Origin: Emiliania huxleyi CCMP1516
Lineage: Eukaryota
Reading direction: 5' to 3'
NCBI RefSeq assembly: GCF_000372725.1
Contig: NW_005201551.1
Location: 378,594-442,593, forward strand
DNA: 64,000 nt
The notes beneath the pieces are model-generated. The model was given only the letters and a program-made list of their open reading frames with translations. It was not told the origin of the DNA and made no database searches. The translations under genes and the position numbers were made by a program. The number at the start of each line of letters is the position of its first letter. The first letter of the stretch is position 1. Positions 55,189 through 63,824 of this stretch are shown piece by piece.

Positions 55189-56830
<1,642 letters not shown>

Positions 56831-56899
56831 CGACGGAGAGAGCTCTCGGCCGAGCGGCAGCGAGCCCTTTTTGCCCCACGCCGGCAGCGGCAGCGGTAC

Positions 56900-57823
56900 G
56901 CGCGGCGCGGCGGGCCACCAGACGCGCGTTATCGCCGGACGGACGTTCGCCGGCAGGCCGCGACTCGAGGGCATCTGCCGGCGCTCGTCTGCCAGTGTGG
57001 CGCCAGAGTGGAGAGCTGGAGGCTGCATATTCAATTTGACGCCCTCGGCGACGTGGCGCAGAACGACGGCGCGGCGGGCCACCAGACGCGGCACAAGGAG
57101 GTCCTCCTGGACCTTGTCGAGCTGCTGCGGGGCAAGCTGGGGCGCGGCGCGGTGGAGCACGAGTTTCACTGCGAGCACAGCACTACGAGGACGGACTTGT
57201 ACATTTACCAGGGCGTGACTGGGGACCTGCCCTGCATCGGCGACACGAAGATCTTTGCGGGTGTGCCGTCGGACCCCTCGGGGGTGGGGCGCATGGGGGC
57301 GTTCGTCGCTTGCGGCAACACGCTGCCACGCGCCCGCGAGACGGTTCTGGGCGTGGAGGGCGGGGACAGGGGTGGGACGGTGGGACGGTGGGATCCGCGG
57401 ACGGGGACCGGGACGGTTGAGGCTGTCAAGGGCCAGTACACGGACGCAGAGGGGAAGTGCCGTGTGGAGGCGCTGCTCTTCGAGGAGTTCGGCGCAATGA
57501 GCGCGGGGGTGGAGGAGCTGCTGATGCGGGTGGCTGAGGTGGCGGGCCGGAAGCTCACGTGGTGGCAGTACGACCAGACGTCGTGGTCGGCGCGCGAATG
57601 GATGCCGTTTGCGCTGCAGCGACTGTCGGTGCAGCTCTGGACGGCGCTCGAGCGGACGAGGCACAGCGCGCCATTATTGGTGCGGCGTCGCGCGGCCGCG
57701 AGGGACCGCAGGGGGGGGTAAGCGGGATCGGGGGCTCTAAGGGGAAGGGAGTGGGGGGCGCCCAGTAGGGCGCCGGCACCCCAGCGTAGAGGGCCTCGTG
57801 TAGCCCTCCTTTTGGTATAATAA
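56900..57823 (+). mobile_element. 5'-truncated CRE-like retrotransposon (second family, longer copy)
   Basis: DALGD..GHQTRH (degenerate zinc knuckle), RTDL, GDTK, LLFEEFG and QRLSVQL. 3' tail TTTTGGTATAATAAAA. 5' limit approximate. Confidence 0.8.
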
Positions 57824-58115: not shown

Positions 58116-61100
58116 ATGCGCAAACGCCGCACCATCCTCGTCGTCGGCGACTCCTTCTGCGACGTCAACGCCGGCCCACTGCCGCGCCTCCCAGAGTGGG
58201 GCCGCAACGTCGTCTCGCCAGAGCGGATCCTAGCCCAGCCAGGCGGAGCCGCGCTCAACGTCGCCTGCAACCTGCAGCGGCTCCGAGGCGACACCGCTCT
58301 CTACTCGGGCATCGGTGAGCCGCTTCCAATCAGTCCGACTTCACACGGACACCACCGACTCGACAGGCGGATCGACTCTCCTCCTCTCACACGGTGCATC
58401 TCTGGCCCAGGCCGCGATGCGTTTGGCGACATGCTGCGCGTCCACCTCGACTCGCTGGGTGTTCGGCTGATCGAGGCGCGTTCGGGACTGTTGTAGACAC
58501 CTGCCACCAAATGATGTGTGCTTCCCGGGCAGGCTTAACACTGGCCTGGGACGTAGCGGTGGATGCCGGCTAGACGCTTCGGCACTGCCCTGCTTCGACA
58601 TTGCCCGGCTAGACGCTTCGACATTGCAACGCGCTCCTTCAGGCGGACTCGGACGAGGACGCGCCGACCGGCGTCTGCATGGTCCAGATTACCCGAGATT
58701 ACCCGAGATTACCCGAGATTACGGCGTCTGCATAGTCCGAGGATCGGGTATCTCGGGTGATCTCGGGTGATCTCGGCTAATCTCGGGCACGCAGCACAGG
58801 TCCTCTCCGGCCCCGACGACCGCGCCTTCTGCTCCCACTTCGGCGTCTCGGACGCCTTCGACGCGTCCGCCCTCGTCGCCGACGGCGCCGCCTTGCTCCG
58901 GCGGTTGGGGCCTTGCCATGTCCACTGCGCGGGCTACTTCTCCTGCGCGGCGCTGCGGAAGACTCTCCCTCGGCTGCTGCTGGCGGCGCGAGAGGTTGGC
59001 GCCACGACAAGCCTCGACACTAACAACGACGCGAGCGGACAGTGGGGCGCCGTGGACGGCCTGTGCGATGCTCTCTTGCCGCCGCTAGACTTCTTCACGC
59101 CTCTGGCTGTAAACAGGCGCCGTCGACGGCTTGTGGGATGCACTCTTGCCTCTGCCGGATCTCCGCGAAGAGGTGTGAGCAGCGCCTCGTCACGGCTTGC
59201 TCTGAGATGCACACAGGTCCTCTTGCCGCTGCTCGACCTCTTCACACCGAACGAGCTCGAGGCGTGCGCCGTCGCGGGCGTGACTATTAGTTAATTAACC
59301 CTACGAGGGCGTCACTAGTGATTAATTAACGAGCTCGAGGCGTGCGCCGTCGCGGGCGTGCCGGCCGGCGACGTCGAGGCCGCCCTCGCCCGGCTGTCGC
59401 GGCAGGTAAATTAGTGAATCGCTAATAATGAATTAGCTCTCGCCCGGCTGTCGCGGCAGGTAAATTAGTGAACACCAAAAATTAATCAGCTCTCGCCCGG
59501 CTGTCGCAGCAGGTAAATGAATGCATTTAGTTAATTAATGATTCACTAATGACTGCTGAAAAATTAATTAGCTCTCGCCCGGCTGTCGCAGCAGGTAAAG
59601 CAAGACTGATTACTCTTTAATAAGCTCTCGCCTGGGTCGCGGCAGGTAAATTAGTGAACACTAATTAGCTGTCGCGGCAGGTCGGCGGCAGCGTCGTCAT
59701 CACGCGCGGGCGGGACGGGGCGAGATATACCCGAGATATACCCGAGATATACCCGAGATATACCCGAGATATACGCGAGATATGCCCGAGATATACCCGA
59801 GATACGGGGCGCGACGGCCGGCGGTCGGTCGACCCGAGATCTATCCCGAGATGTACACGAGATCTATCCCGAGGTGTAGGCGCTTGTCGGCGGGCGGTCG
59901 GTGGAGACGAGAGCTGTCTCCGCTCCGCCGGTCGTCGCTCGCGACGCGGTGGGCGCTGGCGACGCCTTCAAGGCCCCGCCCGCGCCATGACTAGTCAATT
60001 AATGTTTACTTCATTATTCATGAACGAGTTGGCGACGCCTGGCCAGGCTGGCCTGCTCGCTTGCTTCGTCTCTGGAGCAGACCTGGCCGAGGCGGCGCAG
60101 TACGGCTGCCTCACCGGCGCTAATTAATATCAAGTGGAGCTGATGACAGCTTAATATTTAATTAGGCGGCGCAGTACGGCTGCCTCACCGGCGCTCTCTG
60201 CGTCACGACACGCGGCGCCTGCTCGCACCCTCCCGCCGCTACACCTCGGCTGCATCTCGGCTGCATCTCGGCTGCATCTCGGCTGCATCTCGGCTGCATC
60301 TCCCCTGTCCAGGCGCCTGCTCGGACCCTCCCGACGGGGCGCGTGTCGCCGCCTTCGCCGCGCAGCATGGGCTCTCCTCGGTCGCTTCCGCCCTCCCGGC
60401 TTGCGGCGGCTCGAGCTCTGCTGCAGACGGCGACGGGCAGCAGCAGGAAGAGGGGCGGAGCGAGCGGGAGGAGCGGGCCGCTGTGCCTGCTGATGACTGA
60501 TTGTTCCTAGTCCATGGATGGTTGATAGTTGGTAGTAGGAGGGGTTCCTGTGGTGGACCTTTGCGCTGTTGTGGTTGGGAGGTACCTGGCCGTCTAGAGC
60601 AGAGGCAGCTGTCACGTTTGTTGATGCTCGGTGAGTACTTGCTGATTACCGTCAGGCACCTGGCCGTACCAGAGCATTCTTCAGGCCCAGGCCTACTACG
60701 AGGCAGAGCTGCCCGGCCTCTCACATTAGTTAGTCAATCAATAACTATAATTGACTAATCACGAGTTCGAGGCGGAGCTGCCCGACCTCGCCTTTCTCGT
60801 GCTGATGACCTTCTCGTGGCCGCTCGTCGCAGGGCACGCGGCGCAGGTCCTCTCGGGTAATCTCGGCTAATCTCGGGTAATCTCGGGTGATCTCGGGTGA
60901 TCTCGAGCACGCGTCGCAGGTCCTCTCCTGCTTAGATAACTAATTGCTTGCTGGATTCATGATTAATGAAGTAATCCGCAGGTCCTCTCCGGCGCCGCAA
61001 AGGCCGCCCGCTTCTCCGCAAAATCATCGTTGTCTTATTTAGTAATGAGTGATCACTTATTATGAATGAGTCAGGCCGCCGGCTTCTCGCGGCGCGTCCT

Positions 61101-62397
61101 CGGCGCGTGTTGCGTCAACGCCGCCGTCGGCGTCGCCTTTCTGCTGCAGGACGCGGCGCCTCTGTTCACACCTCTGCTTCACACCTCCTCTTCACACCTC
61201 CTCTTCACACCTCTGCTGCAGGACGCGGCGCCTCTGTCGCCCGGCGGCCGGCGAACCGCGATGACTATCCTCGCGGCCCTCGTCGCGCTGGCGCGGCTGC
61301 TGCGCTCTCGAGCTTCTCTCGGAGATCGCCCCGGAGATCGCGCGAGATCGCCCGAGATTAGGCGCAGCTGCTGCTCGAGCCGGCCTTGTTCGGCCTCGCC
61401 ACGTGCTCTCCCCGCGGCAGCGCCACGCAGGCGAGGATCTCCCGAGATCGCCCGAGATCGCCCGAGATCGCCCGAGGTCACCGGAGATCACCGGAGATGA
61501 GGCAGTGCCACGCAGGCGATGATGGTGGGGAACGCGTCCGCCGGCGTCGTCGTCGTCGCGGCCAGCGCGCTCACGCGCCTCGCGGCGGGTGGCGCGGCGC
61601 CGTCTGGCGCGCAGCTCGGCATCGCTGCGCGCGCCTTCTTCGGCCTGCAGGTGGCGTCGAGCGCCGCGTCGTGCGCGCTCTACCTCGTGGCGCTGCGCCG
61701 CTCGCCGCGCCTCCTCGCCGCTGCCCGAGGAGCGGGGCGACGAGGAGCCGCCTCGAGCGCCTCTGCGATTGGCTCGCCGCTGCTGACGCCGGACGTGGCG
61801 CGCGGCGCGGGCGAGGCGCCGCCACGCTCGGGGTGGCGAGAGAGGGGCGCTGCGGTGCGCGCCGCGGCAGGCGCGGTCTGGCTGCCGGCGGCTTGCCAGG
61901 CGCTCTGCTTTGGCACCACGCTCGCCGCTTGGCCGAGCATCCCCGGCGCCGCGTGCGTCGAGGGCGGCCTCGCACGCTTGGGCCAGGGCTGGTGGTTCAC
62001 GCTCGTGGTGCTCGTGTACAACGTCGTCGACTTCGCCGCCCGGCTGCACCTCCCCCTCCTGCAGCGGCTCGCCGCCCGCGCTCGCCCGCGCTCTTGCCTC
62101 GCTGCGTGCGCCGCCCGCACGCTGCTGGTGCCGCTCATCTACGCGTGCGTCCGCCCGCGCCTTGTCCACGGCATGGGCGGCAACGTCGTCTTGCTGCTCG
62201 CCACGGCGCTGCTCGCGCTGAGCAACGGCGTCCTCGCCACCGCGTCGATGATGCAGGTCGCGCGACTCGCGCCGGAGGAGCTGAGGGAGGAGGGGGTCGA
62301 CGTCGCCGTCGCGGGAGTCTACTTCGGACTCGCGGCGGGCGCGACCGTCAGCTGGGCGGTGGGGCGGGCGATGCAGCTGCCGCTCGCGTGTGGGTGA
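58116..62397 (+). CDS. PfkB-family carbohydrate/nucleoside kinase fused to an equilibrative nucleoside transporter (ENT/SLC29-like); multi-exon
   Basis: PfkB motifs ILVVGDSFCDV, PGGAALNVA, GIGRDAFG, PTGVC, FTPNELEA, VVITRGRDGA and DAVGAGDAF. After GC-AG intron 60477-60538 the frame continues into ENT motifs: FALLWLGGTWPYQSILQAQAYY, EPALFGLA..TQAMMVGNASAG, TTLAAWP, YNVVDFAAR, LSNGVLAT..M and GLAAGA..SW. Confidence 0.8.
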
Positions 62398-63824
62398 GTG
62401 TACGGCTGTGTAGTGGAAGGTAAAGCCGTAGCAGATTTGCATTTGGGGGGATTAGAGCATAGAGGGGATCCGATGTGACTCGTGTGAGATCAGGTACGTC
62501 AGTATGAATTACAATTGGAGTGTAAGAGAAAAGAGCAACAGCAAGGTCGAAAACCGAGGAGTGCACAGGTGAGTGCTCGCGCGGAGCCACCGGTGTTCTG
62601 ACTATTTTTACACACACGCCCACTCCGTCAGGGGCGCGGGCGGCGACCGGCCGACCCCCGTCCCCCCCATCTACAGATGATATGCGCATTCTAGATGCCA
62701 AACGCCACAATCTAGGATGCGTTTTCCATCTAAAGACACCGGGTGTCTCCACTATGATTCCGTTCTCCAAGAAGATTTAATCATCTTTAGAGAGCGGGCG
62801 AACCACTGATCGAGTACTAGCTTCCGCACGGGCTAGTTCCATTTCACTCTGACACGCTAATCTTGAAAACGTCCAACGGAGCTCCGTGTTGCTCCCAGCG
62901 CCCTCCCCCGCGCTTCCTGCGGCCATGGCCGATGATACTAGTATGAGAGGTCATCTGGCTACCGCGAGCGCGACTCAACTCGTCGACATCGTCCGATGAT
63001 TGTGCCTCAAAGTCAGCCTCCGGAGGCTATCGTGGGGTCGAGCCGGCAGTAGCCGTGACATGTGGTTCCACCACCCCTCGTATGCTTTGCCTCTGACCGC
63101 CACCGTTCCCAGGCTGCCAAATGGGATGGAAAGGAAGGCTCGGCGAGCGTATAGAAGCGTGCTCGACCTCGTCGTGGCAGCCTGCACGGCAGCGCTGGTA
63201 GGCGCGATGAGCGTCGTGCCACCTGACCCGAGACGGGTCGCAGGCGTCGTACCGAGCGCGTCGAGACCGTGTCCTGATGTGATCTGCACGGGTGAGTCAC
63301 GTCGGCGTCAAAGGAGCGACGTGCGACCTGTCAGAGCTTGAATCTCCGATCTCAGCGGCGTCGAGTCGTCTCCGGCGCGCGACAAAGGTACATCCCCAGG
63401 ACGCACAGAGGCAGCTGAGATTGGAGATCAAGCTCTGACAGGTCGCACGTCGCTCATTTGACGCTGACGTGNNNNNNNNNNNNNNNNNNNNNNNNNNNNN
63501 NNNNNNNNNNNNNNNNNNNNNNNNNNNNNNNNNNNNNNNNNNNNNNNNNNNNNNNNNNNNNNNNNNNNNNNCCCGCGTTACCGTCCACTCGGCGGGGTCG
63601 CAGCTGCCTCTGGAAGGCACCGAGATGTACCTTTTTCGCGCAATGGTCAAAATCAAGGTTTTGTAACGCGAGCTGTGCCACAGTGAAATGGAACTAGCCA
63701 CGGCGCCTTCTACGCACTCTGTCAGCCGTCCCCGCGTGAGGTGCGCCTCCGGCCTCAGGCCCTCTGCGCTCTCTGCCCACAGCACAGCCCGTTCGAGAAC
63801 CCCAGGCCTCAGGCAGTGCCCCAA

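What the first reader, a model, noticed from the sequence alone, without database searches (positions are those of the whole stretch)
58116..62397. PfkB kinase fused to an equilibrative nucleoside transporter
Seen: the last PfkB exon continues through a polar linker (..GDGQQQEEGRSEREER) to a phase-0 GC donor at 60477. The ENT-like TM1 exon (EGFLWWTFALLWLGG) starts in phase 0 after TAG at 60538 and is preceded in frame by a stop, and the nearby ATGs (60514, 60518) close within a few codons, so the transporter has no start of its own. Established: ENT N-termini are cytosolic and PfkB enzymes phosphorylate ribose, nucleosides and sugars. Inference: a single protein coupling facilitated uptake to phosphorylation (metabolic trapping, a group-translocation-like salvage device). 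I do not know of a characterised example.
Basis: partly seen in the sequence, partly recalled or inferred. Interest (0 to 1): 0.8.

Follow-up and report, generated by a model that had tools for sequence, protein, structure and literature searches.

The report
Algal kinase fused to nucleoside transporter
A marine alga joins a sugar/nucleoside kinase and a nucleoside-type membrane carrier in one protein, which likely lets a small nutrient in and likely traps it by adding a phosphate; the public gene catalogue splits this gene in two.

Summary
The fusion is real. One 20-exon gene (58116-62397, +) gives a 782-residue chain: PfkB kinase, polar linker, 11-helix ENT. All 7 of 7 runs laid, from 6 studies, splice kinase to transporter in frame. 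Five full-length fused relatives exist (805-874 aa), one an intron-free ORF (L003). The public Emiliania huxleyi annotation splits the gene into two models. Both halves keep their key residues: kinase catalytic motifs; ENT Asp/Arg pair and fold (human ENT1 Z 42.9, on relative P0031). Uptake plus phosphate trapping is the likeliest job (0.55). The substrate is open. The ENT's base-contact residues are changed, and bacterial relatives of the kinase lie in galactose/tagatose-type clusters. Against strict coupling: kinase-only close relatives exist, and the linker is predicted disordered. My four searches aimed at this architecture found no paper on it. New variant of a known kind.

The parts
58116..62397 (+). 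Whole gene, ATG to TGA: 20 exons, 2349 nt, 782 aa; donors 12 GC, 5 GT, 2 GA
   Evidence: 14 of 19 introns match a listed joint in length; introns 5, 6, 11, 15, 16 inferred from compound joints and homology
58116..58314 (+). Exon 1, kinase aa 1-66 (Asp16; GG switch 43-44)
58411..58475 (+). Exon 2, kinase
   Evidence: joints
58643..58681 (+). Exon 3, kinase (Cys100)
   Evidence: joints
58800..59046 (+). Exon 4, kinase (Arg109, Tyr147-Phe148)
59117..59139 (+). Exon 5, kinase
   Evidence: 5' joint in X2; 3' end inferred
59217..59261 (+). Exon 6, kinase (NxxE motif 203-206)
   Evidence: inferred from compound joint 59098-59328 in X13 and X10 and from homology
59340..59405 (+). Exon 7, kinase
   Evidence: 3' joint; 5' end inferred
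59681..59719 (+). Exon 8, kinase
59880..59972 (+). Exon 9, kinase anion hole GAGD with catalytic Asp269
60047..60091 (+). Exon 10, kinase
60166..60214 (+). Exon 11, kinase
   Evidence: 5' joint; 3' end inferred from compound joint 60121-60312
60313..60470 (+). Exon 12, end of kinase and polar linker (aa 304-356)
60471..60538 (+). Intron 12, GA-AG, 68 nt: the kinase-transporter junction; holds TGA 60498-60500 and the two short-ORF ATGs
   Evidence: joint in 7 of 7 runs laid; placement
60539..60581 (+). Exon 13, start of TM1
60656..60702 (+). Exon 14, rest of TM1
60703..60771 (+). Intron 14, GC-AG, 69 nt, in-frame stop; kept in the main contig of X2 and X13, spliced in X10 and X12; if kept, the chain ends at 394 aa after TM1
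   Evidence: P0138
60772..60846 (+). Exon 15, TM2
   Evidence: 5' joint; 3' end inferred
60982..61002 (+). Exon 16, 21-nt micro-exon
   Evidence: 11 letters between the sides of joint 60854-61073
61075..61149 (+). Exon 17, TM3; followed by the second GA donor (61150)
61222..61290 (+). Exon 18, start of TM4
61362..61430 (+). Exon 19, TM4 with Gln468 and Glu472
61516..62397 (+). Exon 20, TM5-TM11 with Asp661, Arg665 and the TM11 GxxxG (760-764)

Best explanation
One gene encodes a PfkB-family kinase joined by a polar linker to an ENT-family membrane carrier; the carrier likely lets a small ribose- or sugar-containing nutrient diffuse in, and the tethered kinase likely phosphorylates it so that it cannot leave. 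Shown: one spliced reading frame, fused relatives, intact key residues in both halves. From established ENT topology (recalled): the N-terminus, and so the kinase, faces the cytosol. Inferred: both halves are active, share a substrate and work by proximity, not through a sealed channel. A nucleoside is my first guess for the substrate (about 0.35 overall), a free or amino sugar the second (about 0.2).
For: Junction spliced in 7 of 7 runs laid; in 3 of the 4 runs the junction contig alone accounts for the depth in both bins over intron 12, and in all 4 for the bin 60490-60566. One 2491-nt X13 contig fits the model from 112 nt above the ATG to 62358, with intron 14 kept. Five full-length fused clusters at 65.5%, 63.4% and 59.1% identity over the whole chain (P0001-P0003) and 52-59% per domain (P0004, P0005); three more clusters span the junction (P0042, P0045, P0203); L003 352-2976 is one intron-free 874-aa ORF. 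Kinase: Asp16, GG, NxxE and GAGD kept in the model and in 7 of 7 fused relatives aligned; TGxC, Arg and G-aromatic-aromatic motifs line up with plant adenosine kinases. ENT: Asp661/Arg665 match human ENT1 Asp341/Arg345, which bond the ribose hydroxyls (PMC10729961 passages), kept in 5 of 5 full-length fused relatives; fold of relative P0031 matches human ENT1 at Z 42.9, rmsd 2.0 over 352 residues. The kinase and ENT trees split the fused forms the same way. Precedent for facilitator plus kinase trapping as separate proteins: PnuT (PMC5749112 passages).
Against: No activity or substrate was tested. Base-side ENT residues differ from human ENT1 (Leu26>Thr372, Trp29>Tyr375, Gly154>Gln468, Gln158>Glu472; from two weak-scoring stretches), and in PfENT1 mutation of the Gln158 and Trp29 equivalents to Cys kills transport. 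The kinase is about equally far from ribokinases, YdjH and adenosine kinases (E 2e-22 to 5e-20), reaches no NCBIfam cut-off, and its bacterial relatives sit beside SIS (38 of 80 loci), DeoR (35), GH4 (11) and GatZ/KbaZ (11) genes, which points to hexose catabolism. Two close relatives look kinase-only: P0043 (Prymnesium polylepis, 331 aa) and P0206 (339 aa); P0043 groups with fused P0004/P0005 (SH-aLRT 89). P0044 is an ENT-only relative with its own Met (50.6%). Intron 14 is kept in the main contig of 2 of 7 runs, which would end the chain after TM1; no single listed contig shows the fully spliced frame from start to stop.
Confidence: 0.55

Rival explanations
1. Same chemistry on an inner membrane: the carrier would release breakdown products from a food vacuole or lysosome, and the kinase would salvage them in the cytosol, so the source is digestion and not seawater.
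For: An acidic dileucine motif ([DE]xxxL[LI]) lies just ahead of TM1 in 3 of 9 junction-spanning chains (P0003, P0004, P0005) and in P0031; shuffles of those linkers give it in 0.5-14%. Lysosomal ENT3 uses such a motif, and small haptophytes eat bacteria (both recalled, no call).
Against: The window's protein, P0001, P0002, P0042, P0045 and P0203 lack the strict motif; P0004 and P0005 are close kin and count about once.
Confidence: 0.2
2. The halves handle different substrates, or one mainly anchors or regulates the other; the fusion gives joint expression or a membrane tether, not trapping.
For: Kinase relatives in hexose-catabolic clusters against an ENT that keeps the ribose-binding pair. 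The same kinase subfamily also occurs fused to RRM, SIS and GatZ domains. Kinase-only relatives. A kinase+TM1 form by retention of intron 14.
Against: The join persists across at least 8 other 90% clusters while the linker drifts from 50 to 119 residues, and both active sites are kept. In E. huxleyi 89% of 535 introns inspected showed reads along their length (PMC4028052 passages), so the short form needs no function.
Confidence: 0.17
3. Strict coupling: transport and phosphorylation are mechanically linked, so the substrate would enter only as its phosphate, a group-translocation device built from an ATP kinase.
For: Stable fusion with both active sites kept; kinase on the cytosolic end (ENT topology, recalled).
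Against: Linker of 50-119 residues, unalignable, with pLDDT under 50 at 349-380 in the P0001 model. Kinase-only and ENT-only relatives exist.
Confidence: 0.06
4. Two neighbouring genes, as the public annotation has it (EOD38931.1, 324 aa; EOD38932.1, 350 aa), joined only by read-through or assembly.
For: The two public models. Contigs are k-mer assemblies, not single molecules.
Against: Spliced joint with 43 nt on its shorter side in 7 of 7 runs. The public ENT model starts at an ATG inside intron 16 (61066) and lacks TM1-TM2. Intron-free fused ORF in L003.
Confidence: 0.02

Closest known systems
Equilibrative nucleoside transporters (SLC29/ENT; human ENT1, PDB 6OB6; PfENT1)
   Same: PF01733 above cut-off in 5 of 5 full-length relatives; 11 long helices and Z 42.9 to 6OB6 for P0031; Asp/Arg pair and TM11 GxxxG.
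   Different: Carries a kinase on its N-terminus; base-side residues differ (Thr/Tyr/Gln/Glu for Leu26/Trp29/Gly154/Gln158); 20% identity to human ENT1.
PfkB/ribokinase family (ribokinase, adenosine kinase, E. coli YdjH)
   Same: PF00294 at 151-166 bits in five relatives; TM-score about 0.85 over ribokinase chains; catalytic motifs kept.
   Different: No NCBIfam equivalog cut-off reached in 4 of 4 proteins scanned. Has GGAALN where ribokinases have GGKGAN. Adenosine-kinase-like middle motifs but a small all-beta lid. Membrane-tethered.
Pnu vitamin facilitators with partner kinases (PnuT with thiamine kinases; PnuC)
   Same: Facilitated diffusion followed by phosphorylation as a trap (PMC5749112 passages).
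   Different: Separate proteins, bacterial, unrelated transporter fold; 'fused' and 'fusion' occur 0 times in that paper's main text.
Bacterial PTS group translocation (recalled)
   Same: Transporter and phosphoryl-transfer domain in one chain.
   Different: PTS uses a PEP relay and phosphorylates during transport. Here the kinase is an ATP-type PfkB enzyme on a flexible linker, and no coupling is shown.

Membership tests
ENT / SLC29 | PF01733 match above the curated cut-off | tested here: met
   exon 20: 46.6 bits against 29.8; 5 of 5 full-length relatives
ENT / SLC29 | 11-helix ENT fold | tested here: met
   model of relative P0031 (58% identical to the window's ENT half): 11 long helices, Z 42.9 to 6OB6, next best 32.7; the window's own spliced chain was not folded
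ENT / SLC29 | TM8 Asp/Arg pair for ribose hydroxyls; TM11 GxxxG | tested here: met
   Asp661, Arg665, Gly760-Gly764 (roles from PMC10729961 passages)
ENT / SLC29 | Base-contact residues of human ENT1/PfENT1 (Leu26, Trp29, Gln158); define those carriers' purine binding, not the family | tested here: not met
   Thr372, Tyr375, Glu472; Tyr and Glu shared by all 10 subfamily members aligned; register from weak-scoring stretches
ENT / SLC29 | Nucleoside or nucleobase transport | not testable with these tools
   needs an uptake assay
PfkB kinase | PF00294 match and ribokinase fold | tested here: met
   (relatives); single exons of the window score below cut-off
PfkB kinase | Sugar-binding Asp, GG switch, NxxE, GAGD with catalytic Asp (roles recalled) | tested here: met
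   Asp16, Gly43-Gly44, Asn203/Glu206, Asp269; kept in 7 of 7 fused relatives
Ribokinase proper | GGKGAN motif; TIGR02152 cut-off | tested here: not met
   GGAALN; 75-94 bits against 299.65
Adenosine kinase | Cys, Arg and GFF motifs; large helical lid (roles recalled) | tested here: inconclusive
   motifs align with 8RF7 and 9FW6; lid is beta strands only in the P0001 model; no adenosine kinase among the Foldseek rows shown
Group translocation (PTS-like) | Transport obligately coupled to phosphorylation | not testable with these tools
   needs proteoliposome assay

The most novel reading that the evidence does not exclude
Haptophyte algae carry a one-chain 'carry and phosphorylate' machine, an ENT-fold channel with a tethered ATP kinase that captures a dilute marine nutrient not yet known as an ENT substrate (a modified or cationic nucleoside, or an amino sugar, fitting the Gln158-to-Glu change). 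It would be a eukaryotic working analogue of group translocation, and the fusion would name the shared substrate of two orphan protist subfamilies.
Probability: 0.2. Interest if true: 0.85.

Novelty: new variant of a known kind. Interest (0 to 1): 0.62.

Why it matters
ENTs are passive, so net uptake depends on downstream kinases; here the two are one expressed polypeptide, which makes the value of tethering directly testable (cut the linker, kill the kinase). The gene is in a bloom-forming alga and in marine relatives, so it may show an overlooked route by which haptophytes take organic nutrients. The fusion links an uncharacterised PfkB subfamily to an uncharacterised ENT subfamily. It was hidden because the public annotation missed a GA-AG intron and split the gene.

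Tried and rejected
Own-genome search for other copies: not possible, no genome is held; within the window only this locus matches. Docking of kinase on transporter: the complex predictor was not available, so no verdict; the single-chain P0001 model has pTM 0.65 with both domains well modelled, which sets no relative position. ESM Atlas: no usable hit for the whole chain; only generic PfkB clusters for the kinase; this shows neither novelty nor absence. Foldseek with the whole model listed only kinases, so the ENT was folded separately. The careful kinase tree did not finish; the quick tree is reported. No clade test was run, so a single origin is not shown. Most short hits are exon or contig fragments and were not counted as unfused genes. 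Earlier scan notes: none found. Paper searches that returned nothing on this architecture: 24, 30, 61 (0 papers each) and 89 (3 listings, none holding PF00294); 63 was too broad to use; 39 and 72 were seen as listings only and not used. A thiamine-precursor (ThiD-type) kinase was considered and dropped: PF08543 scores 19-21 bits against a cut-off of 27. No silent control stretch was laid; the spliced joints themselves show RNA origin.
Full report
Observation. No genome is held for the window, so I turned to public runs. Fourteen of 15 listed runs hold part of the stretch. I laid 7 of them, from 6 studies; two are on record as RNA-seq and five are guessed RNA. All 7 show the joint 60468-60537, which skips 68 nt with 43 nt on its shorter side. 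Sliding it over the 5 ambiguous letters gives two AG acceptors, and only exon end 60470 / next start 60539 has a G-starting donor (GA). In the four runs the junction contig alone explains the depth of the bin 60490-60566 (4 of 4) and of the bin 60413-60489 (3 of 4; X2 has 20.4 against 15.7 expected). Contigs drop rare forms, so this is not proof that unspliced RNA is absent. GA donors are known in Emiliania huxleyi: 11 of 241 curated junctions, one confirmed by Sanger sequencing (PMC4028052, passages read).

Gene model. Twenty exons give 2349 nt and 782 aa without an internal stop; donors are 12 GC, 5 GT and 2 GA. Fourteen of 19 introns match a listed joint in length. Introns 5, 6, 11, 15 and 16 are inferred from compound joints and homology. 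A 2491-nt contig of X13 fits the model to the base at the points checked (58950, 59970, 60468) if intron 14 is kept, and then reaches 112 nt above the ATG. X10 and X12 show intron 14 spliced in contigs that also cross the kinase-ENT junction; X1's contig has the same length as X10's, 1107 nt. X2 and X13 keep it, and X5 and X7 have contigs over it. Keeping it ends the chain at 394 aa, after TM1; P0138 is such a product. Intron retention is widespread in this species, so I give the short form little weight, but no listed contig shows the whole spliced frame at once.

Public annotation. Two consecutive E. huxleyi models cover this gene: EOD38931.1 (324 aa, ends at the intron-12 TGA) and EOD38932.1 (350 aa, begins at an ATG inside intron 16, lacks TM1-TM2). 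The fusion is therefore absent from those records.

Relatives. A search of longer proteins with exon 20 gave 5 hits among 7990 candidates scored, all PF00294+PF01733, 805-874 aa. Of 334 proteins fetched, 26 match both halves; they fall in 9 clusters at 90%: the five full-length ones, three partial ones that cross the junction (P0042, P0045, P0203) and P0138 from this species. L003 encodes the fusion as one intron-free ORF, and L001 as one open stretch across the junction. These relatives carry no organism names. Their nearest named neighbours are E. huxleyi and Prymnesium polylepis, so 'haptophyte' is an inference. Unfused forms, told in full: of five kinase-only proteins at 48% identity or more that reach the kinase end, one is the split public model, two begin mid-kinase, and two look complete, P0043 (P. 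polylepis) and P0206 (EukProt). P0044 (MMETSP transcript) is ENT-only with a Met 10 residues ahead of TM1; the P0031 cluster is ENT-only on short contigs with inconsistent starts. I could not read their DNA, so true splits and cut transcripts cannot be told apart. More distant kinase-only (oomycetes, about 40-44%) and ENT-only (P0048 cluster, Lapot gusevi P0050, P0066; 30-36%) proteins are the likely unfused ancestral state. In the quick kinase tree (42 rows; the careful search did not finish) the 8 fused rows lie in an 18-row clade (SH-aLRT 95) with P0043 and P0206; P0043 groups with P0004/P0005 at 89. The ENT tree (18 rows) splits P0004/P0005 from the window's gene and P0001-P0003 in the same way. 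One fusion followed by occasional loss fits; it was not tested against two origins.

The kinase. The P0001 model (82 sequences, mean pLDDT 89.6, pTM 0.65) has a ribokinase fold with a small beta lid and a low-confidence linker at 349-380. Asp16, Gly43-Gly44, Asn203-x-x-Glu206 and GAGD with Asp269 are kept in 7 of 7 fused relatives aligned (residue roles recalled). It is not a ribokinase proper. Its middle motifs (TGxC, Arg109, G-aromatic-aromatic) line up with plant adenosine kinases, as expected of a nucleoside kinase. Against that, I fetched the 80 best of 572 confirmed bacterial loci for a 12-sequence profile of its nearest bacterial relatives. Recurring neighbours were SIS (38 of 80), DeoR (35), an amidohydrolase (23), sugar ABC parts (14-15), a second PfkB (14), GH4 (11), GatZ/KbaZ (11), melibiase-like hydrolases (9 and 7) and a LacD-type aldolase (7) (one representative of each of 18 clusters scanned; clusters judged to be opposite-strand frames were not). 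That is galactose/tagatose-type catabolism. Those bacteria are only about 32-42% identical and differ at several of these motifs, so it is a lead, not an assignment.

The transporter. A 12-sequence profile finds only ENTs in the PDB (7 sequences; human ENT1 E 1e-15). The model of P0031 matches 6OB6 at Z 42.9, rmsd 2.0, 352 residues. Asp661 and Arg665 sit at the Asp341/Arg345 positions that bond ribose hydroxyls, and TM11 has the family GxxxG (PMC10729961, passages read). The base side is altered across the whole subfamily, fused or not: Thr372, Tyr375, Gln468, Glu472 for Leu26, Trp29, Gly154, Gln158. So a diol-bearing substrate is likely, with a different base or none.

Mechanism. Shown: one chain, two intact-looking active sites, a long variable linker (50-119 residues). 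Recalled: ENT N-termini are cytosolic and ENTs do not carry phosphorylated products. Inferred: facilitated entry followed by nearby phosphorylation (0.55), as shown for PnuT with separate kinases (PMC5749112, passages read). Rivals: the same chemistry on a vacuole or lysosome (0.2; dileucine motifs in 3 of 9 fused linkers, not in this one), unlinked substrates or anchoring (0.17), strict group translocation (0.06), two genes (0.02).

Novelty. Four searches aimed at this architecture found no paper on it (0 papers; 3 listings, none with PF00294). The library lacks most subscription papers and I read no supplements, so a mention in a domain-architecture table may exist. Both parts are known families and trapping is a known principle, so this is a new variant of a known kind. 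What is new is the single-chain, expressed, conserved facilitator-kinase. Interest 0.62.

Noticed in passing
window 62299: The window has G (Asp751 in TM11); all four runs read T (Tyr), and Tyr is in P0027 and in 5 of 5 full-length fused relatives. A rare allele or an assembly error.
   Followed up: partly
window 62153-62307: A 153-nt in-frame skip with non-splice ends in 3 of 4 runs, carried in X2 by a contig with 11 differences in 148 nt: probably a diverged partial second copy elsewhere in the genome.
   Followed up: no
window introns 6, 7, 10, 11, 17 (59262-61221): 5 of 19 introns begin or end with a copy of 10-30 nt of the neighbouring exon sequence; many introns hold short tandem repeats of a CCGAGAT/ATCTCGG type. 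This makes junctions ambiguous and may bear on how these introns arose.
   Followed up: partly
window 56759-57721 (+): A 320-codon open frame just upstream, no Pfam hit. Its end resembles the C-terminal endonuclease region of non-LTR retroelements (recalled). RNA contigs with about 1-7% differences match 57600-57794, as for a repeat family.
   Followed up: partly
window 63299-63340 and 63431-63472: An inverted repeat of about 42 bp with two mismatches, seen by eye, next to an assembly gap (N run 63472-63571).
   Followed up: no
P0060, P0111, P0152, P0160: The same kinase subfamily is also found fused to RRM domains (two eukaryote-like proteins), to SIS and to GatZ/KbaZ.
   Followed up: partly
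P0041: A 182-aa metagenome protein joins a PP2C-like stretch (motif recalled) to 49 residues 92% identical to this gene's TM8-TM9: a chimeric assembly or a shuffled fragment.
   Followed up: no
window about 56150-56325: A long (GT)n microsatellite (seen as repeating frames).
   Followed up: no
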